In this document: piece after piece, positions 2,070 to 41,834 of the stretch
How the letters are laid out: each line of letters begins with the position of its first letter
Numbering within the stretch: position 1 is the first letter of the stretch
From: a virus
Virus record (IMG/VR): IMGVR_UViG_3300028610_000429
Length of the DNA: 42,503 bases
Reading direction: 5' to 3' (one strand)
Translations under genes and position numbers: made by a program
The notes under the pieces: generated by a model
Databases searched by the model: none
Seen by the model: the letters and a program-made list of their open reading frames with translations, nothing else
What the model was told of the DNA's origin: nothing

Positions 2070-4636
2070 TAATCTACCCAATTACCAGTAAAACAAATAC
2101 TCACCCAAGTTGGTGTATTGGTTACTGAATTAACCTTTAAATCTATTTCTTCACCTGCCGAAATAGTACAAGAAAGCCCAAGATTCTCATCTTCTCCTGC
2201 TGCTGGAGCTACTGGTTCGCCACAATCTCCAGCACCTTCTACTAAATCAAAGTTGACTGTTTGGTCGGACTCTCCCCATATTTCTGTTATTAAGAAAGAG
2301 TTACCTGTTCCATTTCTCCAAATACTAATAAAGTCATCATCGGCAGTAGGATCTTCGAAATAAAGACATTTTGAGTCCATTTGGTCAGCATCAGCAATTT
2401 GAGCATGAGTAATAATATCAGCAGCAATTTCCGTTGCAGTATTTATTGCTCCTGCTGGTAAGTCTATTGACGTTGTAATAGTTGGTGAAGTACCAAATAC
2501 TAAAGCACCTGTTCCTGTTTCATCAGATATAGTTTCCATTATTCCTGAAGAAGTAGTTGTTGCTGTCAAAGCAGCTGAACCATTTCCTAATACTATTCCT
2601 GTTAAAGTAGAAGCGCCTGTTCCTCCGTACTCAACTCCAACATCTGTACCTTCCCAAACTCCAGTCGCTATCGTTCCTATACTTGTAAGGGAAGAAAGAG
2701 TTGCTACATTTGTCATGGCTAGAGTTCCTGTGGCATTTGGCATTGTAATAGTAATATCATTAGCCACATCAGCAGCAATTAATCGAGTCCAATTACTATC
2801 AATGTTGTAAAAATCAAAATAAGTTCCTCCGTCAGAGCTTCCGTCAAAACAAGCTCCATCTGCACAATCTCCGACACTTGTTACGTCTCCTGCTCCTGCG
2901 GCTGCCCAACTTAAAGTTCCGTCTCCACCTGCATCAGTCAAGACTTCTCCTGCCCCTGCAACCGCTAAAGGTAAAGTCAAAGTATAAGTACCTGAAGTTG
3001 CTCCACTTTGAATTGTTAGAATGTTATCATTTGTGGCATTGTGAAATATAATTCCTGCATCAGTTGAACTCGCACTTCCTAAAGTTAGTGAACTAGCTCC
3101 AGTTGCTAAAAGGGTTGTTGCGGTAATAGAACCATTTCCTACAACAGAACCATTTAAACGAATACCTGTATCGGCTGTTAAATCTAAATATCCGTCGTCA
3201 TCTGAAAACACATAAACTCCTGTGTCTCCAAATTGAAACCTTTCATCTAATCCTGCAAGAGCGTGTCCTTCACGATAAAACTTAAATTCAGAAAGACCTC
3301 CTAAGCCAAAGTAAGGATTAGCCGCTCCATACATTCCTCCAATTATCACTAAAGAATCTGTATCGCTATCCCTAGCTTGAAAAGTCATATAGTCTCCATC
3401 GTCATTAGTTGGGCCAAGAAAACCATTTTCATTAGCAGACAAATGAATATATCCATAAGAAGTAAAGTTACCATTACTATCCATACTTCCTACCGTAGCA
3501 TTAGCGTAATCCTTAAAATAAACATAATTTGAACCACCACTATCTCCCATTCTCAATGTAATATCATCACCAGAAGCTACATGAACACCGTGAGAAGGTG
3601 TGTCTACCTCTACTAAAATAGCATCTGTGTTGCTACTTCCAAAAAGACTCCATCCTATTTCTACGATATGCCCAGAGGTAGGCCTTACATTGGTAAGCCC
3701 ACCAGTAGTTTCAGATAAAAATAACTCATCTCCAGCTGACCAAGTTTGACCATCAGGATTAACAACATTAGTGCCAAGAGTATCTACTCCTGATAACAAT
3801 CCAACAACTCTAACAATACCATTACCATTCATACTAATAGCTTCTGCCGCAAGTCCTATCATGTGAGCTTTTCCATCAACATTACAATCAGCAAGACCAA
3901 TCAAAGGTTTAGCTACTCCTGCGCTACCACTATTATATACAGGTTGTCCTTTCACGATAGAGCCAGTGCCTTCTTCTTTAGCATCAATCGTTAAAGCATT
4001 AGCAACCGCAGAACCGACATTTGTTAAATTAGAACCATCTCCATAAAGAGTGGTTGCAGTAAAATCATTTGAAACAGTTACTCCTGCAGTAGCTGTTATA
4101 GTTAATTCATTTGCTGCATTTCTATGAATAGAACCATCTTGCCCAATACCGAAGTAAAGTCTTCCATCATCTCCTAGATATAAACTTCTCCATTCATAAG
4201 TTGCCGAACCAAGATCGTCAGTATCGGCTGCATCTGAAATTAAAGAAGTGTTAATTGCTACTCCAGTTAAGTTGCCTAAAGCCTTAGTAGCTGAAAGAGG
4301 GTCTGCTTCAGTATGGATAAGAGTTCCTGTGGTTAAAGGCAGATAGACAGTATAATCACTTCCCACGTTTCCTAAATTAAGTTCTGCATAATTAGAGTCT
4401 CCGTCGTATATTCTGATATAACTTCCTCCATCTGAAGTACCATCTAAACATGCACCACTCGCACAGTCGCCCACACTTAAAACGTCTCCCTCAGTCATAC
4501 CTTCAACTGTCCAAGTATTATCAACTGGCTTTAAAGTAGTACCATCTAAGTACCAAAGTGTAATTGCATTAACAGTCGCAGCTGTTAAAAAGATTGTAAT
4601 TATTGCGAATAAAAATGCTTTTAATAGTTTGTTCAT
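2069..4636 (-). CDS. Tail-fibre-like 855-aa Gly/Thr/Ser-rich protein with a signal-peptide-like N-terminus and an internal duplicated Cys module
   Basis: The N-terminus is MNKLLKAFLFAIITIFLTAATVNA/ITLW. Composition is fibre-like. A 56-aa module occurs at aa 51-106 and again at aa 584-639. Confidence 0.6.
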   Translation of the reverse strand: MNKLLKAFLFAIITIFLTAATVNAITLWYLDGTTLKPVDNTWTVEGMTEGDVLSVGDCASGACLDGTSDGGSYIRIYDGDSNYAELNLGNVGSDYTVYLPLTTGTLIHTEADPLSATKALGNLTGVAINTSLISDAADTDDLGSATYEWRSLYLGDDGRLYFGIGQDGSIHRNAANELTITATAGVTVSNDFTATTLYGDGSNLTNVGSAVANALTIDAKEEGTGSIVKGQPVYNSGSAGVAKPLIGLADCNVDGKAHMIGLAAEAISMNGNGIVRVVGLLSGVDTLGTNVVNPDGQTWSAGDELFLSETTGGLTNVRPTSGHIVEIGWSLFGSSNTDAILVEVDTPSHGVHVASGDDITLRMGDSGGSNYVYFKDYANATVGSMDSNGNFTSYGYIHLSANENGFLGPTNDDGDYMTFQARDSDTDSLVIIGGMYGAANPYFGLGGLSEFKFYREGHALAGLDERFQFGDTGVYVFSDDDGYLDLTADTGIRLNGSVVGNGSITATTLLATGASSLTLGSASSTDAGIIFHNATNDNILTIQSGATSGTYTLTLPLAVAGAGEVLTDAGGDGTLSWAAAGAGDVTSVGDCADGACFDGSSDGGTYFDFYNIDSNWTRLIAADVANDITITMPNATGTLAMTNVATLSSLTSIGTIATGVWEGTDVGVEYGGTGASTLTGIVLGNGSAALTATTTSSGIMETISDETGTGALVFGTSPTITTSIDLPAGAINTATEIAADIITHAQIADADQMDSKCLYFEDPTADDDFISIWRNGTGNSFLITEIWGESDQTVNFDLVEGAGDCGEPVAPAAGEDENLGLSCTISAGEEIDLKVNSVTNTPTWVSICFTGNWVD

Positions 4637-17210: not shown

Positions 17211-18800
17211 TTATTTTTTATCTTTTTCCTCTGGTAAATCGACTATTACAACCTCTGTTATTAAGAATAGAGAAATTACACTCACTGCATTTTCTAATGC
17301 TACTCTTACAACTTTTGCTGGGTCTATTATTCCTGCCTTTAGTAAATCAACATATTCTCCTGTTGCTGAATTATAACCTCTTGACACACTGTCTTTTGTC
17401 TTTTCTAATATAACATCTGGCTTACCTCCTGCGTTAAGAATAATCTGCTTGGCTGGTTCTCTGATTGCGTTGTATAAAATTCCTAATCCTAGTCTTGTAC
17501 TCATATTCTTTTCTAATAACATTTTCTTTTCTATTTCTTTCGAAGCTTGAATCAGGGTCATTCCAGCGCCAGGTACAATTCCTTCCTCGATTGCTGACAT
17601 TGTAGCTCGAACTGCGTCTTCAATTCTGTATCTCTTTTCTTTGTTCTCTTGTTCAGAGATTGTTCCTACTTTAATTATAGCAATACCACCTTTAAGTTTA
17701 GCAATTCTCTTTTTCAATAATTCTTTCTGATAGTCTGATTCTTCTTTCTTCATTGCTAAAGTTAACTCTTTGATCCTTTTATTGATTGCTGACTTACTGC
17801 CTCCACCTCCAATAATTGTAGTTTTGTCTTTACTTATAATTACTCTATCGGCTTGCCCTAATTCAGTTAATCCTACATCTTCAACTTTTATTCCTATTTC
17901 TTCAGTAATTAACTTAGCTCCTGTAAGAATAGAAATGTCTTGTAGTTTGTTTTGTTTGTCATTTCCATAACCTGGAGCTTTAACTGCTGCAATTCTAAGT
18001 TTTCCTCTAATCTTGTTTAAAACAACAGTAGGCAATGCTTCACCGGAAACGTCATCAGCTATAATTAAAAGAGCTTTATTATCAGCTCCATAAACTTCGT
18101 CTAATACTCCAATGATTTCTTCGTTAGTGCTGATTGCTTGAGATGTTACTAATATATAAGGTTTTTCTATAATAGTCTCCATTCTCTCGGGATGAGTTAT
18201 CATGTATGGAGAAATAAAACCTTTATCAATCTGAAGTCCTTTGACTATCTCTTGCTGGAGTCCAATAGTATGAGATTCTTCTACTGCTATAATTGCGTCT
18301 TTACCAATCTTTTTAATAATATCTGCAATAGTTCTTCCAATCTTAGCATCCCTTGAGGCGATAGTTCCTACACTCTCGACATCTTTATCTTTAGTGAGTG
18401 GCTTGGCCATCTTTTTAATTGTTCCTACTGCTATTTCTAAACCCATAAGCAAACCTTTCTTTAACTCAATTACATCTACACCTGCGGCCATAGCTTTTAA
18501 TCCTTCTTTTAAAATATGTTGAGCAAGAATTGTAGCCGTCGTGGTTCCGTCTCCTGCTTCCTTATCAGTCTTGTTAGCTATATCTTTGACTAAATCACAG
18601 CCCATAGCTTCAACAGGGTCTTTCAGTTCTACATTATTAGCCACAGTAACTCCGTCTAATGAAAAAGTAGAAGTTCCTTTTTTGAAAGCGACCACTCTTC
18701 CTTTAGGTCCTAAAGTAACCTTGACTGCATTAGATAGAATGTCTACTCCTTTTTGAAGCTTCTTTCTAGCCTCGTCAGAAAATAGTATTTGTTTGTTCAT
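17211..18800 (-). CDS. groL: Chaperonin GroEL (Cpn60), phage-encoded
   Basis: 529 aa. The N-terminus ([31 protein letters not shown]) is GroEL-like and the nucleotide-binding motif is [12 protein letters not shown]. Similarity extends over the full length. The protein ends ...DLPEEKDKK with no Gly-Gly-Met tail. Confidence 0.9.
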
Positions 18801-19095: not shown

Positions 19096-19629
19096 TTAGT
19101 TTATATTTTTATGAACTTCTATATGGCATTTTCGACATAATGTAACGCCATTTTCTATAGATGTTCTCAATTTTTTGTTTCTTGCAAAACTTTTAATGTG
19201 ATGTGCGTTTAGTATCAATTTTCTTTTTCCACACTCCTGGCAAGTCCAATTATCCCTCGCAAAGACTGATTCTCTCCATAGTCGATATTCAATACTCCTT
19301 CTTATTTTATCATTTTCGGTGGTAACACCTCCTTTCCAAGCTGGATTTTTACTTCCCCGATAATGTGGAGGAGTAGCCCACGGGCATTTCTTCCCTTTCA
19401 ACGCCTCGCTAATTTTCTTGCTAACTCTCTTCTTATATTCTGGGTTTTTCCATCTTTTTTTAGAAGACTGAGCTATTTTCTTTTTTACTTTTTTAGTATG
19501 TTTCCTACCTATATTTATTTTTCTTAATTTCTGCTTAGTTTTTTCTGTTGTTACTTTCCCCAGATTTATCTTATCTCCTTTCTTAAACCACCCTTTGTTT
19601 TTTCCACTCTTTGGAATTCCTTTTGGCAT
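19096..19629 (-). CDS. HNH homing endonuclease (NUMOD-like basic N-terminus, C-terminal HNH)
   Basis: NPAWKGG...WR..VF.RD..TCQECG...LNAHHIKSF...NGVTLCRKCHIEVH. It sits between groES and groEL. Confidence 0.8.
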   Translation of the reverse strand: MPKGIPKSGKNKGWFKKGDKINLGKVTTEKTKQKLRKINIGRKHTKKVKKKIAQSSKKRWKNPEYKKRVSKKISEALKGKKCPWATPPHYRGSKNPAWKGGVTTENDKIRRSIEYRLWRESVFARDNWTCQECGKRKLILNAHHIKSFARNKKLRTSIENGVTLCRKCHIEVHKNIN

Positions 19630-23894: not shown

Positions 23895-24071
23895 TTAGAT
23901 TTTAATTTCTATTCTTATTATTTTGTTGCCACTATCAGAAAAACTATCTTTTGCTTTTTTTGCATCTTCTTGTGTTTCGAAAATCCAATATCTTCCCCAG
24001 TTTGGTTTGGCTTCTGTAAAAGCTCTATCCCTCTCGTCAATTATTATCCATGCTTCAATTGTTTTTTTCAT
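23895..24071 (-). CDS. 58-aa protein (below the track threshold); replaces the plus-strand shadow ORF 23832..24116
   Basis: ATG at 24071, TAA at 23897..23895. MKKTIEAWIIIDERDRAFTEAKPNWGRYWIFETQEDAKKAKDSF... has normal composition, unlike the Phe/Cys/Ile-rich plus-strand ORF. Confidence 0.5.
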   Translation of the reverse strand: MKKTIEAWIIIDERDRAFTEAKPNWGRYWIFETQEDAKKAKDSFSDSGNKIIRIEIKI

Positions 24072-24236
24072 AATTTTACGAAGCTAAGTTTTTATATATT
24101 AGCAAGGAGCAGGTAAGTAAGATGAGTTTTATTGAGATTAAGAGAGTCGTAATTTTTTGGTGGACTTCGTTAATCTGCTTTGCTCGTTTATCGAACTGAC
24201 CTGTCCTTGCTGTATTCAATTTTAACTTCTGTAAGT

Positions 24237-24265
24237 AGTATATATTATTTAAAAAGTCTTGTCAA
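24237..24265 (-). promoter_or_regulatory. Sigma70-type promoter P1 (TTGACA-17-TATACT)
   Basis: On the minus strand, TTGACA is at 24265..24260, the spacer AGACTTTTTAAATAATA is 17 nt, and TATACT is at 24242..24237. The -35 hexamer contains the stop codon of 24262..24429. Confidence 0.7.
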
Positions 24266-27953: not shown

Positions 27954-28160
27954 TTATTTATTTATCATAGCTTTCCTACGACCAGCAGAATAGCCGTTGG
28001 TATATCCGAGAATATAATTTTCTGAGCGACAATTTATCTTTCCTTTGAAAAATTCCCCTCGCTTTTTCATTTCATTAATTTCTCTGTTAGTATAAAAAAG
28101 TCTATTAATTGGGTTGCCAATTCCCATTTTTGCTAAGTTTCTTTTTATTTGAGTTATCAT
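27954..28160 (-). CDS. 68-aa basic protein, unknown
   Basis: Track ORF; first sizeable gene downstream of promoter P3. Confidence 0.55.
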   Translation of the reverse strand: MITQIKRNLAKMGIGNPINRLFYTNREINEMKKRGEFFKGKINCRSENYILGYTNGYSAGRRKAMINK

Positions 28161-28314
28161 ATTTTTTTTAATTAATAATTAATAATTAATTCCAAACTAA
28201 AAAGAGCAAACGATAATATGCGTGGCTTAAAGAAACCACCCTCTTGCGAGGTTATCATCTGCTCTTTGCAGTCAATAATTAAATTGTGATTCTTTATATT
28301 TTGCATATTACATA

Positions 28315-28343
28315 AGTATAGTTTATTTTTTAAAAAGTGTCAA
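28315..28343 (-). promoter_or_regulatory. Sigma70-type promoter P3 (TTGACA-17-TATACT)
   Basis: TTGACA at 28343..28338, 17-nt spacer CTTTTTAAAAAATAAAC, TATACT at 28320..28315. Confidence 0.7.
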
Positions 28344-28351
28344 GAAATAGT

Positions 28352-28371
28352 GGGAGATAATTTTATCTCCC
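28352..28371 (-). terminator. Hairpin GGGAGAT-AAAATT-ATCTCCC at the 3' end of the HNH gene
   Basis: A 7-bp stem overlaps the stop codon of 28363..28980. It is followed by ACTATTTC and then immediately by the -35 of P3. Confidence 0.5.
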
Positions 28372-28980
28372 TGCATTTCGGACTTTGCGTCTGAAATACT
28401 TAATGTAAGACTTAAACCTCTTTTCAAAATTCTTTTCTTTACCTCTAGTCAAAAGGTGGCATTTCTTGCATAAAGTTATTCCATTGCTTAGTTCAAATCT
28501 TAATTCTGGATAATCAACCCATCTTTTTACATGATGAGCTTCTAAATTTTTACCTCTTTCTTTACACAACATACAGGTATAATCGTCTCTCTTGAAAACC
28601 TTATTCACCCATTGTATATTGTCTTTATTTCTTAATGGTCTACATTTTAATTTACTTCTATCTTTTACCCATCTGATGTTGTTTTCTCCAGTATAAAAAG
28701 AATGCCGACATTTAGCAGAACAAAAGTTATGTTTATGTTCTCTTATTTTGTTCCATTTAGCTATAGAAGAATGCACAAAATAATCTTTCTTGCAGTTATA
28801 ACAAATAAATTTTACTTTTTCTTTTACTCTAGATTTTCCCATACACTCGTAAGAACAATACTTTCCTATCTTTATATAACTCGGTTTTACATAAAATTCT
28901 TTTTTACAAATAGGACAAACGAGTATTTTTCCTTTTCTTGTTCTTCCTCCTGTTTTTTTTCTTCCTTTTTTAAATAACAT
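28363..28980 (-). CDS. HNH homing endonuclease (free-standing cassette)
   Basis: VFKRDDYTCMLCKERGKNLEAHHVKRW...[13 protein letters not shown]. It has N-terminal CxxC zinc ribbons, its own extended -10 promoter, a structured leader and a hairpin terminator. Confidence 0.8.
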   Translation of the reverse strand: MLFKKGRKKTGGRTRKGKILVCPICKKEFYVKPSYIKIGKYCSYECMGKSRVKEKVKFICYNCKKDYFVHSSIAKWNKIREHKHNFCSAKCRHSFYTGENNIRWVKDRSKLKCRPLRNKDNIQWVNKVFKRDDYTCMLCKERGKNLEAHHVKRWVDYPELRFELSNGITLCKKCHLLTRGKEKNFEKRFKSYIKYFRRKVRNAGR

Positions 28981-28992
28981 ATATTATTAAAA

Positions 28993-29041
28993 GCCCCGCC
29001 AAACTGGTGAGTCAGGCGGGACATAATAAAAGACTCACCAG
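28993..29041 (-). promoter_or_regulatory. Structured 5' leader with two interleaved helices (A:A' 10 bp, B:B' 6 bp) upstream of HNH gene 28363..28980
   Basis: The minus strand reads CTGGTGAGTC-11nt-CCCGCC-T-GACTCACCAG-TTT-GGCGGG-GCTTTTAATAATAT-ATG. The same architecture with a different sequence occurs at 31581..31630. Confidence 0.6.
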
Positions 29042-29048
29042 CAATATA

Positions 29049-29057
29049 ATAATAGCA
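29049..29057 (-). promoter_or_regulatory. Extended -10 promoter element TGcTATTAT
   Basis: The minus strand reads TGTGCTATTAT. The predicted start site falls at the first base of helix A of the leader. Confidence 0.45.
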
Positions 29058-29062
29058 CACTT

Positions 29063-29404
29063 TTAAAAATAAAGAAAGGGAGAAAGTTCATTCTCCCAAT
29101 AGCATAATGCTATTTTTTGGAAATAGTTTATATACCTTTTCCAAGTATTTTTGCGGTGAAGAAAACGATGACAAGAATTACAAATAGTAACTCCATTTTG
29201 AATGCTATTAGCCATTTCTTTGGACCATCCCAGAAATCTAATTGCGTAAGACATTTTCACAATATGATGACATTGTAAATTTTCAGTATTACCACAATTT
29301 TGGAATTGACACTCGCAATTGTCTCTTCTTCTGATAAGTCGTCTCTGTTTATGGTTGAAGCCTTTGACTTTTCTGCGTTTTTTACGACGCTTTTTCTTTC
29401 TCGT
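29063..29404 (-). pseudogene. HNH endonuclease relic: intact HNH core but no usable start codon
   Basis: The frame is open from 29404: TRKKKRRKKRRKVKGFNHKQRRLIRRRDNCECQFQNCGNTENLQCHHIV...NGVTICNSCHRFLH. There is no ATG, GTG or TTG before the internal GTG at 29260, which lies after the first His-His. A strong SD (AGGAGGTGA) is followed only by ATT-TAA. Confidence 0.5.
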
Positions 29405-29416
29405 TTAAATCACCTC

Positions 29417-29713
29417 CTAAATGTAGAAATTTTGAAAGTCAGTATCTTCTTCATAGATTTCTTCGTCTGAATCATCACCTACTTCGTCTTTAGTACCTTC
29501 CTCTTTTATAGCATTTTGAATTGCTTTAGATTGGAAGATTGCGTGAATGTTCTTTGCTATCACACCTATAAAGACTCTGCTGACTATTTCTAGTATGGGT
29601 AATGTCTTAGCAGTAATTCCTTGTCTTGGATTTATGCTTTTTAACATATTCATCATAATAGTGTAGTCATTACAAATCATTGTGATGGTCTTGATGTAGT
29701 CTTCATCGTTCAC
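29417..29713 (-). CDS. 98-aa protein with an acidic C-terminal tail, unknown
   Basis: GTG start at 29713, six nt after GGAGGTGA. The C-terminus is EVGDDSDEEIYEEDTDFQNFYI. Confidence 0.55.
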   Translation of the reverse strand: MNDEDYIKTITMICNDYTIMMNMLKSINPRQGITAKTLPILEIVSRVFIGVIAKNIHAIFQSKAIQNAIKEEGTKDEVGDDSDEEIYEEDTDFQNFYI

Positions 29714-29726
29714 TTTTTATCACCTC

Positions 29727-30518
29727 CTAAGTAGAAACGTGAACATCCCATCTGTCGCCACAGAACTTGATTTTGGCTACGCCTGTCTTCACAGGGTACA
29801 TATTTTTCCTTTCAGCGTACGAATACTCGTACTCTAAAAATCCGCCTGTAAGAACGTAATATACTTTCTTTCTGTCTACACGTGAACCTCTGCCGATCTT
29901 TTTCAACTCTCTTTTCTCAAGAGTCAAAGACATTAATTCGTGTGTATGTCCATAAAGATAAACGTCTGCGAGAGTATGATTTGATGTCCTCATAGCAGCT
30001 GTTATCTTTGTGTGTGGATACCAAGCACTAGAACTTCCGTGTTGGGCGTGTATTACATATCTTCGTCCGCCAACTGTTAAGCCAACAAAACAAGAATATC
30101 CGCCATAGGGAACTCCTAGTCTTTGGGCCAATACTTCAGAAACCTTGATTCCTGAACTTTTCCAAATTCTATGTTCATGGTTACCGTCTAGGACTACGAT
30201 TATCTGGTCTTTAATAGGTTCTAGGATGTCATATAAAACATTTAATTGAGTCTGTGGCGGATTAACTTGTTCCACCCATCCAGCACCAACTGATGTTTTA
30301 GAAGCACATTCCATTAGATCTCCCATTAAGATAACCCTACTTCCTGACTTTTTTATATAGGTAACAGTGTCTAAAAATTTCTGAATGTTGCAAGTAGGTG
30401 CTCCTAAATGCACATCTCCCAAAGGGATTAATTTCATCTCGTCTTCAGAGCATCTGTATTCTATAGATTCTATTCCGTCTGGTTTTCCTCTAAATAGTTC
30501 TTCTATTGTTTCGTTCAT
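29727..30518 (-). CDS. Calcineurin-like metallophosphoesterase (lambda NinI / PP-like or Mre11-like fold)
   Basis: It carries GDVHLG, GDLMEC, GNHE and GHTHE motifs in the canonical order. A strong SD (GGAGGTGA) lies 8 nt upstream of the ATG. Confidence 0.75.
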   Translation of the reverse strand: MNETIEELFRGKPDGIESIEYRCSEDEMKLIPLGDVHLGAPTCNIQKFLDTVTYIKKSGSRVILMGDLMECASKTSVGAGWVEQVNPPQTQLNVLYDILEPIKDQIIVVLDGNHEHRIWKSSGIKVSEVLAQRLGVPYGGYSCFVGLTVGGRRYVIHAQHGSSSAWYPHTKITAAMRTSNHTLADVYLYGHTHELMSLTLEKRELKKIGRGSRVDRKKVYYVLTGGFLEYEYSYAERKNMYPVKTGVAKIKFCGDRWDVHVST

Positions 30519-30560
30519 TCAATCATTCACCTCCAAGTAAATTGCTAATGAACTATGTTA

Positions 30561-30569
30561 ATCATAGCA
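30561..30569 (-). promoter_or_regulatory. Extended -10 promoter element TGcTATGAT upstream of the phosphoesterase gene
   Basis: The minus strand reads GTGCTATGAT, about 40 nt upstream of the ATG at 30518. Confidence 0.4.
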
Positions 30570-30579
30570 CGAATTTAAC

Positions 30580-30603
30580 AAAAAAACAACCCTTAACGAG
30601 TTG
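30580..30603 (-). terminator. Intrinsic terminator CAACUC-GUUAA-GGGUUG followed by U7
   Basis: The minus strand reads CAACTCGTTAAGGGTTGTTTTTTT: a 6-bp stem (one G:U pair), a 5-nt loop and seven U residues. It lies about 55 nt downstream of promoter P5. Confidence 0.6.
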
Positions 30604-30663
30604 AAAAAACAAATTGTTTTAATTTAGTAAATTGCAATTAAGGCTCCTTACTATTATGACGTA

Positions 30664-30692
30664 ATTACAGCACTTTTGTTACACTCTGTCAA
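30664..30692 (-). promoter_or_regulatory. Sigma70-type promoter P5 (TTGACA-17-TGTAAT)
   Basis: TTGACA at 30692..30687, 17-nt spacer, TGTAAT at 30669..30664. The -10 is weaker because it lacks the A at position 2. Confidence 0.5.
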
Positions 30693-30758
30693 TAGAAAAA
30701 TCCACCTAAAGTGGAAATTTCTAAATAAAATGCTTACATCTTTATTATAGCACAACTA

Positions 30759-30962
30759 TTATTCTCCGTCTTTAACACCTAGTTTCTTTTCAGTAGTGAC
30801 TCTCAAGAAAAAGTTCACAAACGGACTTAGTGCCACTAATAAAGCTCCTACACTTTCTGCTAATTCTGCATTTGGTTTATAACCTATGGCTGTCGCTAAA
30901 ACCATAACGATCGTCAAGAAGTTAAACCAAATTGTTTTAGATTTCCAAAATGCTTTTGTCAT
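30759..30962 (-). CDS. Holin-like 67-aa protein with two TM helices
   Basis: WFNFLTIVMVLATAIGY and VGALLVALSPFVNFFL are TM helices and the C-terminus is charged. The gene lies near the amidase gene. Confidence 0.45.
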   Translation of the reverse strand: MTKAFWKSKTIWFNFLTIVMVLATAIGYKPNAELAESVGALLVALSPFVNFFLRVTTEKKLGVKDGE

Positions 30963-31000
30963 TTTACTAATTTTTGGCTTGTAATATCGACTTTATTCCT

Positions 31001-31567
31001 TTATATTACCATATTAATATAATGATTAGACTTCTTTTTATTATCTGAAGCCCATAGAGGTTGTAAGTTGACTAAGCTCCAGCAACTTTTAAACTCTTTG
31101 TTTTCAACTGTTTTATACTTGAATAAACTTTTCGGCTTTCGGTGATCAATATGCCACTCGCCATAATTTTCAAAACTCATTCCTTTTTTAAAATTTACGC
31201 TTAGTCTTTGCATTAGTTTTTCTAAAGTATAGCCAACTAATGTTTCCCAGCTCGCCCCAAATTTCTTTCCTTTAAGTGCAAGCCATATAGCCGTTGCCAT
31301 ATTCCCATCAAGATGAAATTTTGGGTCTTTTCTTTTTCTTTCTCTTTCATATTTTCTCCTTAATTTATTTATTTGTTCTCGATGTTCTTGCCGATATTTT
31401 TGCTGATATTCTTTTCTATCTTTTTTATGTTCTTGCTGATATTTTTCATGATATTGTTTTGGATTGTCGCAATAACTTCCATCTATATAACTAGGATTAT
31501 TTTTTCCTTTTTTAAATCTTACTCCAAACTTATGTCCTTTTTGAAAACCCTTAATTCCTTTTGGCAT
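31001..31567 (-). CDS. HNH endonuclease (H-N-N type), free-standing cassette
   Basis: WHIDHRKPKS...NLQPLWASDNKKKSN. The track start at 31591 is a TTG inside the leader; the ATG is at 31567. The N-terminus MPKGIKGFQKGHK is identical over 13 aa to that of 38988..39461. Confidence 0.75.
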   Translation of the reverse strand: MPKGIKGFQKGHKFGVRFKKGKNNPSYIDGSYCDNPKQYHEKYQQEHKKDRKEYQQKYRQEHREQINKLRRKYERERKRKDPKFHLDGNMATAIWLALKGKKFGASWETLVGYTLEKLMQRLSVNFKKGMSFENYGEWHIDHRKPKSLFKYKTVENKEFKSCWSLVNLQPLWASDNKKKSNHYINMVI

Positions 31568-31580
31568 AATCTTAAAATTA

Positions 31581-31630
31581 AACACTCCCAACTGCTAGGC
31601 GGGGAGTGTTGTATAAAAAAGACCTAGCAG
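31581..31630 (-). promoter_or_regulatory. Structured 5' leader with two interleaved helices (A:A' 8 bp, B:B' 9 bp) upstream of HNH gene 31001..31567
   Basis: The minus strand reads CTGCTAGG-12nt-AACACTCCC-CG-CCTAGCAG-TT-GGGAGTGTT-TAATTTTAAGATT-ATG. Confidence 0.6.
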
Positions 31631-31638
31631 TTAATTAA

Positions 31639-31667
31639 AGTATATACCTTTTAAAGTTCTGTGTCAA
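31639..31667 (-). promoter_or_regulatory. Sigma70-type promoter P4 (TTGACA-17-TATACT)
   Basis: TTGACA at 31667..31662, 17-nt spacer CAGAACTTTAAAAGGTA, TATACT at 31644..31639. Confidence 0.7.
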
Positions 31668-31701
31668 ATTGATTAATAGCTTATCGTCTAGTCGTCTTAA
31701 T

Positions 31702-32232
31702 TTAGCTTCTCTGCTGATTTTTGTACCACTTGATATAATTGGCTATCTTGCTACCCGGACACACTGTTGGTTTGATATTTTTATGAACATAGATCTCTGA
31801 AAAAGGTATTCCGTGCTTGATTCTTAGCCTATCTAAAAGTTTTTTTAATTCTACTTTCATTTCTTCTGTGAACTTTGTATTATCTCCCATTACACAAACT
31901 CCTATAGAATTTTTGTTCCAATAACCAGGTCTTGCTTTCTCTACACAATGCGCTCCTTCTTCGTTGTCGGCTCTTGCTTGGAATAACTTACAATCAAGTT
32001 GTAAAAAATAATGATATCCGCAATAAAACCCTATACTACTTTTAAATCCCCATTTTTGTTTGTGCCAATTATCAACTGAAGCGAAATTATTCCCAGTTCC
32101 GTCATAGTGAACAACTATAGCAACAGGTACAGGAAGATTAGGAACAGTAAGCTTTTGCCTCAATATAAGAATTCTTAATTGAAGAAAAAAGATTTGTATT
32201 TTGAGTCTTATTTGTTCTAATGAATAGTTCAT
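31702..32232 (-). CDS. N-acetylmuramoyl-L-alanine amidase endolysin (Amidase_2 / T7-lysozyme / PGRP fold)
   Basis: VVHYDGT...WHKQKWGF...GYHYF...GAHC...NKNSIGVCVMG...HKNIKPTVCPG parallels the zinc and catalytic positions of T7 lysozyme. The N-terminus (IQIFFLQLRILIL) is moderately hydrophobic. Confidence 0.8.
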   Translation of the reverse strand: MNYSLEQIRLKIQIFFLQLRILILRQKLTVPNLPVPVAIVVHYDGTGNNFASVDNWHKQKWGFKSSIGFYCGYHYFLQLDCKLFQARADNEEGAHCVEKARPGYWNKNSIGVCVMGDNTKFTEEMKVELKKLLDRLRIKHGIPFSEIYVHKNIKPTVCPGSKIANYIKWYKNQQRS

Positions 32233-38991: not shown

Positions 38992-39461
38992 CTTTTTGAA
39001 ATTAATTTATAATTTTTATTAAAATTGCTTCCATAAGTATCGGTTTTCTTATGGCAATCCCTACAAAGTGTTCTTCCATTATCTATCGCAAATCTTAATT
39101 CTGGGAATAAAGCAAATGGCTTTATATGATCTGCTTGTAAGTTTCCACCTTTATCATCTCCGCAAAAAACACAAGTATAGTTATCTCTTTCAAAAACTGC
39201 TTTTCGCCAAATTTTATATTCTTTTGATTTTCTTAATCTATCCAATTCAGGATAATCTTTCATCTTTCCACCCTTCCAATTTGGATGATTTTTACCACAA
39301 GGAAACTTATAAGCATTTGGGTATTTTTTTCTTCCTTTCATCCATTTACCAACTCCTATTCTTTTATGAGTTTTACTTATTTTAGTTCCTGCTTTTTTTC
39401 TTGCATTTTTGGAAACTAAATCTTTATGACCTTTTTGAAATCCTTTTATTCCTTTTGGCAT
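38988..39461 (-). CDS. HNH homing endonuclease inserted between structural genes
   Basis: NHPNWKGG...WRKAVFERDNYTCVFCG...LQADHIKPF...NGRTLCRDCHKKT. The track start at 39497 is TTG; the ATG is at 39461 (MPKGIKGFQKGHK). Confidence 0.8.
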   Translation of the reverse strand: MPKGIKGFQKGHKDLVSKNARKKAGTKISKTHKRIGVGKWMKGRKKYPNAYKFPCGKNHPNWKGGKMKDYPELDRLRKSKEYKIWRKAVFERDNYTCVFCGDDKGGNLQADHIKPFALFPELRFAIDNGRTLCRDCHKKTDTYGSNFNKNYKLISKR

Positions 39462-39471
39462 ATACTGAATT

Positions 39472-41265
39472 TTATCGTTTACTTTGGTTAAATTCAATGA
39501 GCAATTCTTCTATCTCTGGAGAACTCTCTGTCCCCCGAAGTTCTATTTTAAATTGAATCCATTTTGACCTTTTTGCTATCTTATAAAGCTGTTTAGCGAC
39601 TGTCTGGCTTGAAATTGCTCCTAACTTAGTCCAATTCATTAGTCTTGCGTCTGCGTCTCCTGAAGCCCCAGGTATCGCTTCGTCTATAGTAACAGTATAA
39701 GTTGGATCTGTATAACTCACAGCTGAAATATGTGCTGTTGCTCCTGCTCCCTTTCCTACTATAATCTCAACTTCTTGGCCTACAGCGGCATAAGCGAACA
39801 TTGCTTGAGTAGAAGTAAAAGTTTTCGTACTTGTCCAAGTTATTTCGTTTGCTTTAACGTACCCGGTTGTATGGTATAAGTTTGAATTTTTATCATTTCT
39901 ATATTTTACTACTATTCTGTCTGTGGAATTTTCTAATTTTTTAAATGCTATATTTAATCTCTTCCAAAAAGCTCTTACATTAGAAGAAGCAATTTGTGTT
40001 GTCACAAAATATCCTCTATTAGTAACACTGCTTTTTACTTGAGAAGTTAGTATCGCCTTAATAGTGGTTGACTCATTATCAGAATAAACAGAACAACCTG
40101 CTAAAAATCTTCCTTGTGAAGGGTTAGTTTCTACTAAAGCGCCATTTGGTCCAAAATTACCTGCCCCCCAATCATTGTCGGTAGATCCATCGTATTGTCC
40201 TACAGAGTATTTATGATAAAGACCTACATCTTTGTCATAAACCCATATTCCTCCAAGCATATTTTCTAGTAATAAAAATCCATTTCCGGGATTACCAGGA
40301 GAAGCATCTAAAAGTATATGGATTCTATTTCCGATAAGACACATTCCGTTGTGATGAACCATTTGTAAAATAGTAGAGTTATCTTCCCAAGTTATTCCAC
40401 TTTCAGTTATTGGAAGAGCAGCTACTTCAGCAAACCCTTCACCGTCATAAGCTAATAATTGCCCCTTTCCGTTTATTGTGTGCATTACACCATTCTCGTC
40501 TACACAACCAGCCCAAGAAATATCGCTATCTGGAGACAAAGGAGAATCATAGGTTTCGCTTGTTCCATCCCAAGGGAAGATTAACCCTACACCCCCCCTT
40601 ACATGTTTTGTTCCTATATACACTCTGTACCCATCATCAGCAACCCACACTATCTCATATTCTTTCGGTAAAGTTATCCTATTTTCTACCACAACCAAAC
40701 TGTCATCTATTGTATGAATTGTGTTTATATTAGTTACTAAAAGTAAATTTATAAATTTATGGAGAATATGTTTTCCAGCCGTTAAAGCTGTTCCACTTAA
40801 AGTGGTTTGCCACCAAGACGTGTCCCAAACTCCGTTATTAAGCATTGATAAATCAGTATTCCTTGCCACTATTAATCTGTCATAACTATTAGCCTGACCA
40901 AAGATTTCCATATCTGTCATTGCCGCAGTTGGAGTATCTCCTATAGCATCTTGCGTCCATCCTACTAAAGGATCAGTATTAGTTGTTTTAAACATTAATC
41001 CATCAGTTGAAGCCGCAAGTGCAGATTGAGTCAAAGCCCACCACCTATCTGTTTTATCTGCATCACTTCTTATAAACTTTGCAGCAGTCTCAAGATCAGC
41101 GTCATCTCCACTATCAACCAACCTATAAATCCTTTCTGATAATCTTATTTTTCCTTTATTTGCTTCTAAGTCTATGTTTTTAGTTGCCCAAAGATTACCA
41201 AGAACTTCTCCTCTTGAAGCTCTGACGAATCGTTTTGTTTCTGGATTTGGTATGGTTATTTGCAT
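39472..41265 (-). CDS. 597-aa large structural protein (tail or nozzle candidate)
   Basis: Track ORF, beta-rich and Trp/Gly-rich. It is flanked on both sides by HNH genes. Confidence 0.55.
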
Positions 41266-41834
41266 TTTATAATTTTAGTAAATTCTTTTTCAAAACTTTT
41301 TTCTTTTCTTTTTGTTAAGTTGTGGCACTTTTTACAAAGTGTTATTCCGTTGTTAATTTTAAATCTTAATTTAGGATATTTTACAGATTGTTTTATATGG
41401 TGTGCCTCTAAATATCCACCTCGCTTTTTGCATTTTTGACAAGTAAATCTATCTCTCTCAAATACTGATAATCTCCACAATTTCCACTCAATACTATTAT
41501 AAATCTTATTTCTTTCTGATGTAACCCCTCCTTTCCAAGCTGGGTTTTTACTACCCTTCTTACCCTCACTCATTTTCTTTCTCGATTCTTTAGACATCTT
41601 CTTTCCTATGCCAATCTTACCAAATCCTTGCCTTATTGCATTTTCTCTCATCTTTTCTTTTGTTTCTTTAGAAACTATCTTACCTTTATGTCTTAAACTA
41701 TTCTGTCTTTTCCATTCTTCTGTGTGCTTATATCCCAAACTATTCTTGTGTCCTAAACAGTTTTTATTTCCTTTATTAGCTTCACTAATCTTTCTTGTAT
41801 GTTCTCTCGTTTGTTTATATCCTTTTTTACACAT
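41256..41834 (-). CDS. HNH homing endonuclease with NUMOD3-like repeats
   Basis: Repeated G.K.T.E.K.K.S motifs, then NPAWKGG...[16 protein letters not shown]...LEAHHIKQS...[13 protein letters not shown]. The track start at 41849 is TTG; the ATG is at 41834. Confidence 0.8.

What the first reader, a model, noticed from the sequence alone, without database searches (positions are those of the whole stretch)
28981..29057. Covarying interleaved two-helix RNA leader shared by two unrelated HNH genes (copy 1)
On the transcribed strand, the leader of HNH gene 28363..28980 reads 5'-CTGGTGAGTC (A) TTTTATTATGT CCCGCC (B) T GACTCACCAG (A') TTT GGCGGG (B') GCTTTTAATAATAT-ATG. The leader of a different-family HNH gene (31001..31567) reads 5'-CTGCTAGG (A) TCTTTTTTATAC AACACTCCC (B) CG CCTAGCAG (A') TT GGGAGTGTT (B') TAATTTTAAGATT-ATG.

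- The helix sequences are unrelated, but pairing, the order A<B<A'<B', the loop lengths and the U-rich tail after B' are all preserved.
- That pattern is compensatory covariation, which supports a real RNA structure.
- B:B' plus the U-rich tail looks like an intrinsic terminator.
- A:A' encloses B and has A' inside the B:B' loop, so the two helices should exclude each other, as in an antiterminator/terminator switch.
- In both cases the predicted transcription start falls at the first base of A. The promoters are the extended -10 at 29049..29057 here and P4 at the other locus.

T4 homing-endonuclease genes are known to be controlled by RNA hairpins. This interleaved design looks like a distinct, portable control module of free-standing HNH cassettes.
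Basis: seen in the sequence. Interest (0 to 1): 0.75.

Follow-up and report, generated by a model that had tools for sequence, protein, structure and literature searches.

The report
Two-state RNA leader before phage nuclease genes
A short, evolutionarily conserved RNA leader with two interlocked, mutually exclusive hairpins (one looks like a transcription terminator) sits between a promoter and several selfish HNH-type nuclease genes of uncultivated phages. It probably limits how much nuclease is made, and it matches no described RNA family.

Summary
On the minus strand, both leaders have two perfect helices in the order A<B<A'<B', then a U-rich tail, then an SD-less ATG. The predicted transcription start is the first base of A.

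I found seven more sequence-homologous leaders in metagenomic phage contigs, and a second, sequence-unrelated pair with the same architecture. All eleven lie 8-19 nt upstream of HNH or EndoVII-like nuclease ORFs from at least three protein families.

- **Covariation:** 96% of cells are paired against 77% in shuffles. Twelve of 19 pairs carry double-sided changes. Nine internal G·U pairs and no A·C point to sense-strand RNA.
- **Exclusivity:** the linker after A' is 0-4 nt, so the full helices cannot coexist. The two folds are near-isoenergetic. A:A' is transcribed first, and the nested-path barrier to B:B' is 16-25 kcal/mol.
- **Terminator test:** B:B' meets the stem and U-tract criteria, but its 12-17 nt loop is A' itself.

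Best reading: a portable, bistable cis-regulatory leader in which a pre-emptor helix competes with a terminator by capturing its loop. Termination itself, and whatever flips the switch, are untested. There is no Rfam match. I rate it a new variant of a known kind, interest about 0.6.

The parts
29078..29097 (-). Canonical terminator-like hairpin (GGGAGAATGAACTTTCTCCC followed by a T run) that ends the small upstream HNH gene, just before the copy-1 promoter.
   Evidence: terminator scan. A matching hairpin is conserved in the orthologous loci L015 and L259.
29049..29057 (-). Copy-1 promoter, an extended -10 (TGCTATTAT). The predicted +1 is G29042.
   Evidence: Sequence read. The orthologues carry TGTTATAGT (L015) and TGTGCTATAAT (L259) at the same place. 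The same GTGCTAT(A/G)AT motif recurs at about 30755 and about 30570.
29032..29042 (-). Copy-1 helix A, 5' arm (GCTGGTGAGTC). It lies at the predicted 5' end of the transcript.
   Evidence: Covariation (helix 1: 8 of 11 pairs with double-sided changes).
29023..29031 (-). Copy-1 L1, a U-rich linker (TTTTATTAT). It is sequence-conserved in the close homologues.
   Evidence: Alignments. Its function is unexplained.
29015..29022 (-). Copy-1 helix B, 5' arm (GTCCCGCC). It lies inside the loop of hairpin A.
29003..29013 (-). Copy-1 helix A, 3' arm (GACTCACCAGT). It forms the loop of hairpin B.
28993..29000 (-). Copy-1 helix B, 3' arm (GGCGGGGC).
   Evidence: plus (helix 2: 4 of 8 pairs with double-sided changes).
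28981..28992 (-). Copy-1 U-rich tail (TTTTAATAATAT) running up to the ATG. There is no Shine-Dalgarno sequence.
   Evidence: Five or more U in the first 8 nt after B' in all 11 leaders (sequences).
28363..28980 (-). HNH1 endonuclease ORF (205 aa), the gene controlled by copy 1.
   Evidence: Pfam HNH, E = 2.4e-6. PHROG HNH endonuclease.
31639..31667 (-). Copy-2 promoter, TTGACA-17-TATACT (11 of 12 consensus matches). The predicted +1 is A31632.
   Evidence: The orthologue L407 has TGCTATACT at the same spacing.
31622..31632 (-). Copy-2 helix A, 5' arm (AACTGCTAGGT).
31602..31610 (-). Copy-2 helix B, 5' arm (AACACTCCC).
31590..31600 (-). Copy-2 helix A, 3' arm (GCCTAGCAGTT).
31581..31589 (-). 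Copy-2 helix B, 3' arm (GGGAGTGTT). It directly abuts A' (L3 = 0).
31568..31580 (-). Copy-2 U-rich tail (TAATTTTAAGATT) up to the ATG.
31001..31567 (-). HNH2 ORF (188 aa), an EndoVII-like beta-beta-alpha-Me nuclease. It lies between the amidase gene and a holin-like gene.
   Evidence: phrog_1035 'endonuclease VII', E = 6.9e-9. BLASTP against HNH1 gives E = 0.26. Neighbouring genes.

Best explanation
It is a cis-acting, two-state 5' leader RNA of about 65-70 nt. It forms part of a self-contained expression cassette (promoter, leader, SD-less ORF) for free-standing HNH or EndoVII-type nuclease genes in a group of uncultivated phages.

**The two helices.**
- The transcript begins with arm A. A' is transcribed before B', so the 5'-terminal hairpin A:A' (9-13 bp) forms first.
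- B:B' (8-13 bp, GC-rich) followed by a U-rich tract has the stem and tail of an intrinsic terminator.
- The terminator's loop is A', and its 5' arm sits in the loop of hairpin A.
- The linkers are only 0-4 nt. A rigid A:A' duplex therefore holds B and B' apart, working as loop capture in the manner of a molecular beacon. The two helices are mutually exclusive although they share no nucleotide.

**Proposed action.**
- A:A' acts as a built-in pre-emptor (antiterminator) and as a flush 5'-end hairpin.
- Any transcript in which A is missing, occupied or melted folds into the equally stable B form. That form terminates at the U tract, or, once the transcript is full length, carries a stable hairpin just 5' of an already weak, SD-less start.
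- The net effect is low or timed expression of a potentially harmful nuclease.

**Shown.** The helices, their order, their conservation and covariation on the sense strand, the promoter and ATG geometry, near-isoenergetic folds, and the association with nuclease genes.

**Inferred.** The steric exclusion, that B:B' terminates, that A:A' prevents this, and the biological purpose. What triggers the switch, if anything does, is unknown.
For: **Architecture.** The A<B<A'<B' layout is verified at both window loci.

**Chance is excluded.**
- 0 of 40 surrogates carry such a site, against 2 in the window.
- Only one unrelated low-GC hit turned up in 1.07 Mb of control loci.

**Homologous leaders, all directly 5' of nuclease ORFs.**
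- L015-L020: gene 70% identical to HNH1.
- L259: 46% identical to HNH1.
- L267/L268 and L269: 66% and 55% identical to HNH2.
- L407 and L408-L410: 62% and 54% identical to HNH2.
- L272: a NUMOD3-HNH gene, found by DNA pattern.
- L049 and L094 form a second, sequence-unrelated subfamily with the same architecture.

**Covariation on an unfitted MAFFT alignment.**
- 96.2% of cells are paired against 77.3% in shuffles (0 of 500 shuffles reach it).
- 12 of 19 pairs carry double-sided changes.
- Covariation score is 0.607, against 0.234 shuffled and 0.06-0.15 when partners are slid.

**Strand.** Nine internal G·U pairs and no internal A·C. L407 differs from window copy 2 only by A-U to G·U and U·G to C-G.

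**Energetics.**
- The B form is the MFE of the full leader in all 8 tested.
- Up to the end of B' the two forms are within about 4 kcal/mol in 10 of 11 leaders.
- The nested-path barrier from A to B is 16-25 kcal/mol.
- A:A' is already foldable 0-5 nt before B' is even synthesised.

**Promoter geometry, read from the sequences.**
- 6 nt between the -10 and A1 in five leaders.
- 8-10 nt in four others.

**Tail.** All eleven leaders have at least 5 U in the first 8 nt after B'.

**Precedent.** Phage homing-endonuclease genes are known to be held down by terminators and RNA hairpins (PMC2988022).
Against: - No experiment exists. Termination at B:B' is only inferred.
- The B hairpin loop is 12-17 nt, outside the usual 3-8 nt. 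The U tract is short (3-4 consecutive U) and interrupted, and the consensus terminator scan did not call it.
- A:A' always has a head start and shares no bases with B:B'. The predicted default is therefore constitutive read-through, which leaves the purpose of the terminator unexplained unless something removes or blocks A. No such factor was found:
  - no second copy of A or A' in the window;
  - no conserved upstream ORF;
  - no ligand-aptamer-like domain.
- Conservation of L1 and the tail is unexplained. A proposed L1:tail helix has no covariation.
- Three other HNH genes in the same window do without the leader. So do several close homologues elsewhere (L258, L260, L261, L264, L270).
- Pseudoknotted intermediates were not modelled.
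Confidence: 0.5

Rival explanations
1. Post-transcriptional device only. A:A' is a 5'-terminal stabiliser hairpin, and B:B' is a hairpin next to the start codon that tunes translation or decay of the full-length mRNA. Transcripts slowly refold from the A form to the B form, acting as a lifetime timer. No transcription termination is involved.
For: - The predicted +1 lies 0-4 nt from the base of helix A in 9 of 10 leaders with a recognisable promoter. This is the geometry known for 5' stabilisers such as ompA and ermC (own knowledge).
- The start codons lack an SD and lie 8-19 nt after B'.
- The terminator loop is atypically long.
- The B form is the thermodynamic minimum of the full leader, while the A form is kinetically first.
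- T4 seg43(25) has a stable hairpin just upstream of its RBS (PMC2988022).
Against: - B' never overlaps the ATG.
- The only predicted pairing that reaches the start region (L1:tail) shows no covariation.
- A run of at least 5 U in the 8 nt directly after a GC-rich stem is conserved in all 11 leaders. This reading does not explain that.
Confidence: 0.2
2. The short RNA from the promoter to the U tract (about 55-60 nt) is itself the product, a phage small RNA. The nuclease ORF is expressed only by leak-through.
For: - A strong consensus promoter followed within 60 nt by a terminator-like hairpin is the layout of an sRNA gene.
- The same phage has other promoter-to-terminator mini-units (30755..30701 and 30690..30587) and a structured RNA after the promoter at 28343.
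- A U-rich L1 plus a hairpin and U tail resembles Hfq-type sRNA anatomy (own knowledge).
Against: - All 11 leaders are immediately followed, at a fixed 8-19 nt, by a nuclease ORF. None was found in front of another gene type or standing alone.
- No complementary target for A or L1 exists in the window.
- The supposed seed A is self-complementary to A' in the same RNA.
Confidence: 0.12
3. The element is a promoter-proximal terminator of a phage-wide antitermination circuit of the lambda PR'-tR' type. The conserved TATTAT-like L1 would be a sigma-dependent pause element, and the A:A' pairing would be secondary.
For: - Several strong promoters in this window are followed closely by terminator-like hairpins.
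- L1 contains the -10-like TATTAT at about +15..+20 in the w1-type leaders.
Against: - A:A' is the best-covarying helix (8 of 11 pairs with double-sided changes), so it is under selection.
- L1 is only 3-5 nt and lacks any -10-like motif in L049 and L094.
- No Q-like gene or binding element was identified.
Confidence: 0.08
4. The element works at the DNA level. It could be interleaved inverted repeats serving as protein operators, a cruciform or single-stranded-DNA structure, or a homing or insertion scar of the nuclease cassette.
For: - I-TevI represses its own promoter through an operator (PMC2988022).
- Dyad-symmetric operators can mimic covariation.
- A 19-nt tail segment (GGGGCTTTTAATTAAAAGA) is shared between the L015 leader and the leaderless L264 gene.
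Against: - Nine internal G·U pairs and no A·C show strand-specific pairing.
- One-sided changes pass through wobble pairs.
- The U tract lies on the sense strand only.
- Two different palindromes per locus, with locus-specific sequences, would need many different dimeric proteins.
Confidence: 0.05

Closest known systems
RNA-structure control of T4-type homing endonuclease genes (I-TevI, I-TevII/III, segB, mobE; terminators inside mobE and segF)
   Same: - Selfish phage nuclease genes are held down by cis RNA structure or terminators placed at their 5' ends.
- The position of the promoter relative to the hairpin arms matters (PMC2988022).
   Different: - In T4 a single hairpin sequesters the SD and AUG, and a late promoter inside it yields open transcripts.
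- Here there is no SD and the start codon is not demonstrably paired.
- The promoter precedes both helices.
- Two interleaved helices compete with each other.
- There is no sequence similarity.
Classical terminator/antiterminator attenuators (trp leader, pT181 repC pre-emptor, RAT/LicT, riboswitch expression platforms)
   Same: - Promoter-proximal position.
- Two mutually exclusive folds, one of them a GC-rich hairpin followed by a U tract.
- The upstream fold is made first and pre-empts the terminator.
   Different: - In those systems the antiterminator shares nucleotides with the terminator's 5' arm, and a sensor (ribosome, protein, tRNA, ligand or antisense RNA) selects the fold.
- Here the helices share no nucleotide. 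Exclusion is topological, because A' is the terminator loop.
- No sensor is evident.
H-type pseudoknots (for example the T4 gene 32 leader pseudoknot, or the preQ1-I riboswitch)
   Same: - The same strand order: S1 5', S2 5', S1 3', S2 3'.
- Located in a phage 5' leader.
   Different: - Loop 3 is 0-4 nt against a 9-13 bp stem 1, so the full pseudoknot is sterically impossible.
- Only a partial pseudoknot, with about half of A:A' melted, could form.
Metastable 5' hairpins of hok-type toxin mRNAs
   Same: - A kinetically favoured 5' structure forms during transcription.
- It delays adoption of the thermodynamic fold of an mRNA that encodes a harmful protein.
   Different: - hok uses long-range 5'-3' pairing, antisense Sok RNA and 3' processing.
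- Nothing of that kind is seen here.
Lambda PR'-tR' (6S RNA) promoter-proximal terminator
   Same: A strong constitutive promoter is followed closely by an intrinsic terminator, giving a short RNA unless read-through occurs.
   Different: - Read-through in lambda needs the Q protein loaded at a sigma-dependent pause.
- Here a cis helix is positioned to do that job.

Membership tests
Intrinsic (Rho-independent) terminator (helix B:B' with its tail) | GC-rich stem of at least 5 bp | tested here: met
   8-13 bp stems with 5-7 G-C pairs in all 11 leaders.
Intrinsic (Rho-independent) terminator (helix B:B' with its tail) | U-rich tract directly after the stem | tested here: met
   At least 5 U in the first 8 nt after B' in all 11 leaders (sequences). 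The runs are short (3-4 consecutive U) and interrupted by A.
Intrinsic (Rho-independent) terminator (helix B:B' with its tail) | Short loop (about 3-8 nt) | tested here: not met
   The loop (L2 + A' + L3) is 12-17 nt. The consensus scan (loop 3-8) did not report either site.
Intrinsic (Rho-independent) terminator (helix B:B' with its tail) | Causes transcript release | not testable with these tools
   Needs in vitro transcription or Term-seq.
Classical terminator/antiterminator attenuator | Two mutually exclusive folds in a promoter-proximal leader | tested here: met
   - L3 is 0-4 nt against a 9-13 bp helix A.
- Nested folding gives either the A form or the B form, never both.
- The energies are near equal.
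- Exclusivity is inferred from geometry, not measured.
Classical terminator/antiterminator attenuator | The antiterminator overlaps (shares bases with) the terminator's 5' arm | tested here: not met
   A, B, A' and B' are four disjoint segments in all 11 leaders.
Classical terminator/antiterminator attenuator | A sensing input (leader peptide, aptamer, protein or antisense site) | tested here: inconclusive
   - An AUG in L1 opens uORFs of 5-45 codons in 6 of 9 homologues. It is absent in w2, L407, L408, L049 and L094, and the peptides are not conserved (own reading of the sequences).
- No Rfam aptamer was found.
- No trans complement to A exists in the window.
T4-type homing-endonuclease translational hairpin | The hairpin sequesters the SD and/or start codon | tested here: not met
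   No SD is present. B' ends 8-19 nt before the ATG. The only predicted pairing near the ATG (L1:tail) has no covariation.
T4-type homing-endonuclease translational hairpin | An internal (late) promoter gives transcripts lacking the 5' arm | tested here: not met
   The recognisable promoters lie upstream of A, with +1 at or 2-7 nt before A1.
H-type pseudoknot | Interleaved stems | tested here: met
   The order A<B<A'<B' holds in all 11 leaders.
H-type pseudoknot | Loops long enough for both stems to coexist | tested here: not met
   L3 is 0-4 nt but must cross the shallow groove of 9-13 bp (standard pseudoknot stereochemistry, own knowledge). A pseudoknot-aware fold was not available.
Any Rfam 15 family | Covariance-model match | tested here: not met
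   No hit at gathering score over the whole window. Only chance-level hits with E at least 1.7 in 28100..31750.
5'-terminal mRNA stabiliser hairpin | Hairpin within about 0-4 nt of the 5' end | tested here: inconclusive
   The predicted +1 is 0-4 nt from A1 in 9 of 10 leaders with a promoter. The transcription starts are predicted, not mapped.

The most novel reading that the evidence does not exclude
A previously undescribed class of attenuator. The antiterminator does not compete for the terminator's bases. It captures the terminator's loop in the manner of a molecular beacon, giving a compact 50-nt, non-overlapping bistable switch.

The switch travels as a portable promoter-leader cassette with different selfish nuclease genes. 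It may read out a property of the infected cell, such as RNA polymerase speed or modification, a 5'-end-binding factor, or the transcript's origin, to time nuclease expression.
Probability: 0.3. Interest if true: 0.75.

Novelty: new variant of a known kind. Interest (0 to 1): 0.6.

Why it matters
- If the model holds, selfish nuclease cassettes in phages carry their own compact expression governor.
- It would also add a design principle to RNA attenuation, namely blocking a terminator by loop capture rather than strand competition. That could be useful for synthetic biology.
- The motif gives a well-covarying, roughly 50-nt candidate for Rfam.
- It gives a directly testable system: four short arms and clear compensatory-mutation predictions. 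This addresses how free-standing homing endonucleases are kept tolerable outside the T4 paradigm.

Tried and rejected
1. **Third helix between the U-rich L1 and the A-rich tail.** RNAfold predicts it in the B form. It shows no covariation: 66.7% of cells are paired against 67.7% in shuffles. Rejected.
2. **Leader-peptide attenuation from the AUG at the L1/B border.** The AUG is absent in 5 of 11 leaders, and the peptides differ in length and are not conserved. Not supported.
3. **Trans partner for A or A', or a repeated L1, elsewhere in the window.** None beyond chance.
4. **Known RNA families.** None. No tRNA or tmRNA.
5. **Close cultured relatives.**
   - No megablast hit in the phage collection.
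   - The terminase is only about 25% identical to known phages, so no annotated homologous region could be used.
6. **Pattern scans.**
   - The w1-type pattern found one true new member in IMG/VR (L272).
   - In bacterial and archaeal genomes it found only chance hits. For example, L303 lies inside a membrane-protein gene.
   - The w2-type pattern gave only chance hits.
7. **Covariance model R1 (A:A' as the structure).** It finds only the two window copies in 820 kb of HNH-containing loci. The sequence family is therefore narrow, and L049/L094 are a separate subfamily.
8. **Forcing a hand-made structural alignment through MAFFT with N padding.** This failed. The plain MAFFT alignment A5 turned out to be in register and was used instead.
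9. **L158.** Its 7-bp A:A' next to a long ordinary terminator was judged ambiguous and was not counted.

Full report
**1. The observation**

All genes of the window are read from the minus strand. The leader of the HNH gene 28363..28980 reads as follows:

- extended -10 TGCTATTAT (29057..29049), then 6 nt
- A: GCTGGTGAGTC (29042..29032)
- L1: TTTTATTAT
- B: GTCCCGCC (29022..29015)
- T
- A': GACTCACCAGT (29013..29003)
- TT
- B': GGCGGGGC (29000..28993)
- tail TTTTAATAATAT, then ATG

The leader of the second nuclease gene, 31001..31567, reads as follows:

- TTGACA-17-TATACT (31667..31639), then 6 nt
- A: AACTGCTAGGT (31632..31622)
- L1: CTTTTTTATAC
- B: AACACTCCC
- C
- A': GCCTAGCAGTT
- B': GGGAGTGTT (31589..31581)
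- tail TAATTTTAAGATT, then ATG

To test chance, I scanned for two interleaved helices, each at or below -8 kcal/mol, with both short linkers at most 6 nt.

- The scan finds exactly these two sites in the window and none in 40 first-order Markov surrogates.
- In a further 1.07 Mb of fetched DNA, mostly unrelated genomic contigs, the only low-GC hits are additional nuclease leaders plus one unrelated site.

**2. Context**

- The window is a novel phage of 34% GC. It encodes a terminase, a portal, an SU10-type adaptor, GroEL and an amidase.
- It has no close cultured relative.
- It carries at least six beta-beta-alpha-Me nuclease genes.
- HNH1 is a Pfam and PHROG HNH endonuclease. HNH2 matches PHROG "endonuclease VII" and shows no BLASTP similarity to HNH1.
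- Only these two nuclease genes have their own promoter and leader. The others follow the preceding gene within 0-12 nt.
- None of the nuclease genes has a Shine-Dalgarno sequence, although other genes in the window have strong ones (AGGAGGTGA).

**3. Related sequences**

I fetched contigs encoding homologues of both proteins. The same leader appears in front of the following genes:

| Locus | Downstream gene |
|---|---|
| L015-L020 | 70% identical to HNH1 |
| L259 | 46% identical to HNH1 |
| L267/L268 | 66% identical to HNH2 |
| L269 | 55% identical to HNH2 |
| L407 | 62% identical to HNH2 |
| L408-L410 | 54% identical to HNH2 |
| L272 | NUMOD3-HNH gene, found by DNA pattern; lies antiparallel between head genes |

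- The leaders in front of HNH2-type genes in L267 and L269 resemble window copy 1 more than copy 2 in sequence. Their A arms begin AGCTGG..., they share TTATGCCC..GGGC, and they have a TTTAATTA tail.
- One leader family therefore serves at least three nuclease families. This supports the idea of a portable module.
- L049 and L094 carry the same architecture with unrelated sequence. They differ from each other by a compensatory pair in A (GCTTTGCA against GCTTGGCA).
- Other homologues lack the leader (L258, L260, L261, L270). L264 keeps only the tail.
- A covariance model found no further copies in 820 kb of HNH loci.
- Pattern scans of genomes gave only chance hits.
- Rfam has no match.

**4. 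Structure evidence**

The nine homologues were aligned with plain MAFFT, not fitted to the structure. I then tested the two-helix structure on that alignment.

| Measure | Observed | Shuffled partners | Slid partners |
|---|---|---|---|
| Cells forming standard pairs | 96.2% | 77.3% (0 of 500 reach it) | not compared |
| Covariation score | 0.607 | 0.234 | 0.06-0.15 |

- Twelve of 19 pairs carry changes on both sides: 8 of 11 in A:A' and 4 of 8 in B:B'.
- The six unpaired cells in B come from w2 and L407, whose B helix is three columns out of register in that alignment.
- Nine G·U pairs lie inside helices and no A·C does.
- L407 differs from window copy 2 by A-U to G·U and U·G to C-G.
- These points, together with the U tract, place the structure on the sense strand. 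It is therefore RNA rather than duplex DNA.

**5. Why the helices exclude each other**

- The linkers are L2 = 0-4 nt and L3 = 0-4 nt, while A:A' is 9-13 bp.
- In an H-type pseudoknot, L3 would have to cross the whole shallow groove of A:A'. That is not possible at these lengths (established pseudoknot geometry; inference).
- Put another way, A' is the loop of hairpin B. When A' is held in a rigid duplex with A, B and B' cannot meet.

Thermodynamic results:

- The B form is the minimum free energy fold of the full leader in all eight tested, by 3-8 kcal/mol.
- Up to the 3' end of B', the two forms are within about 4 kcal/mol in ten of eleven leaders.
- The best nested refolding path from A to B costs 16-25 kcal/mol.
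- With about 12 nt of RNA hidden in the polymerase, A:A' can already fold when the polymerase is 0-5 nt short of finishing B'.

The predicted order of events is therefore that A:A' forms first and is kinetically trapped.

**6. Terminator likeness**

- B:B' has 8-13 bp with 5-7 G-C pairs.
- It is followed in all eleven leaders by at least 5 U in 8 nt.
- Its loop is 12-17 nt, however, and the consensus scan did not report it.
- The phage's ordinary terminators have 3-6 nt loops: 29097..29078, 28371..28352, 30715..30701 and 30603..30587.

**7. Interpretation**

The best-supported reading is a bistable cis leader.

- A 5'-terminal helix pre-empts a terminator-like hairpin by loop capture.
- The expected outcome is restrained or timed expression of the nuclease.
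- This agrees with what is known for T4 homing endonuclease genes, which are limited by terminators, RNA hairpins and processing (PMC2988022).

The weak point is purpose. With A:A' always first, the terminator should be off by default, and I found no sensor. The rival readings are:

- a purely post-transcriptional stabiliser and timer
- a small RNA gene
- part of a phage-wide antitermination circuit
- a DNA-level element

The first three cannot be excluded computationally. The last is disfavoured by the wobble-pair asymmetry.

**8. Novelty**

The kind of thing, an RNA structure that limits a phage homing-endonuclease gene through a terminator/antiterminator choice, is known. Several aspects appear undescribed:

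- the non-overlapping, interleaved implementation
- its conservation with strong covariation
- its transcription-start-flush geometry
- its sharing among unrelated nuclease genes

No matching family is in Rfam 15. Literature searches found nothing equivalent.

I rate it a new variant of a known kind, with interest of about 0.6.

Noticed in passing
window 28197..28343 (- strand): A consensus promoter (TTGACA-17-TATACT, 28343..28315) lies directly after the HNH1 terminator. It is followed by a Y-shaped structured RNA of about 80 nt (28273..28197) ending in UUUUU: MFE -36.2 kcal/mol, z = -4.8. This overlaps the doubtful 44-aa ORF 28172..28306. The syntenic spot in L015 (about 3655..3790) has a promoter and a different structured, terminator-ended RNA (z = -5.3). 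It is a possible sRNA or a second leader type.
   Followed up: partly
window 30520..30760 (- strand): The intergenic region between the holin-like gene and the Metallophos gene holds three promoters and two canonical terminators.
- TGTGCTATAAT at about 30755.
- TTGACA...TGTAAT at about 30690.
- TGCTATGAT at about 30570.
- Terminators at 30715..30701 and 30603..30587.

This gives two promoter-to-terminator mini-transcripts. One has an SD plus a 14-codon ORF (MQFTKLKQFVFSTR, TTG start).
   Followed up: partly
window 19096..19629, 28363..28980, 29063..~29400, 31001..31567, 38994..39452, 41259..41834: Six beta-beta-alpha-Me (HNH or EndoVII-like) nuclease genes lie in 42.5 kb, an unusually high load. 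The 38994..39452 gene shares the N-terminus MPKGIKGFQKGH with HNH2. None of the six has a Shine-Dalgarno sequence.
   Followed up: partly
window 29063..29400 (- strand): The small HNH gene upstream of copy 1 is open to at least 29335. It has no ATG, GTG or TTG before 29260, although a strong SD (AGGAGGTGA) sits at about 29425. The L015 orthologue starts with GTG. This suggests a possible non-canonical start or a decaying gene.
   Followed up: no
L207 / L208 / L216, 2477..2548: Another compact interleaved pair was found: A TCTCGGCTT, B GGCAATCTG, L2 = 3 nt, L3 = 1 nt. It is enclosed by an outer stem (CTTGTGGCTGGAT / ATTCAGCACACAAG), has no U tract, and lies in front of a 102-aa ORF of unknown function (z = -4.8). 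The interleaved design is therefore not strictly confined to nuclease genes.
   Followed up: partly
window 24060..24265 (- strand): The promoter TTGACA-17-TATACT (24265..24237) is followed by a leader of about 170 nt. It has a long-range stem (AGCAAGGACAGGT ... ACCTGCTCCTTGCT) before the ATG at 24071.
   Followed up: no
L264-L266 (upstream of the HNH2 orthologue P0122) against L015 2984..3003: The leaderless HNH2 orthologue keeps a 19-nt segment, GGGGCTTTTAATTAAAAGA, identical to the B' and tail end of the L015 leader. L015 and L266 come from the same sample (3300025736). This hints at recombination or decay at the 3' end of the module.
   Followed up: no
window 17211..18800 (- strand): The phage encodes a GroEL-type chaperonin (phrog_5725, E = 1e-135).
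   Followed up: no
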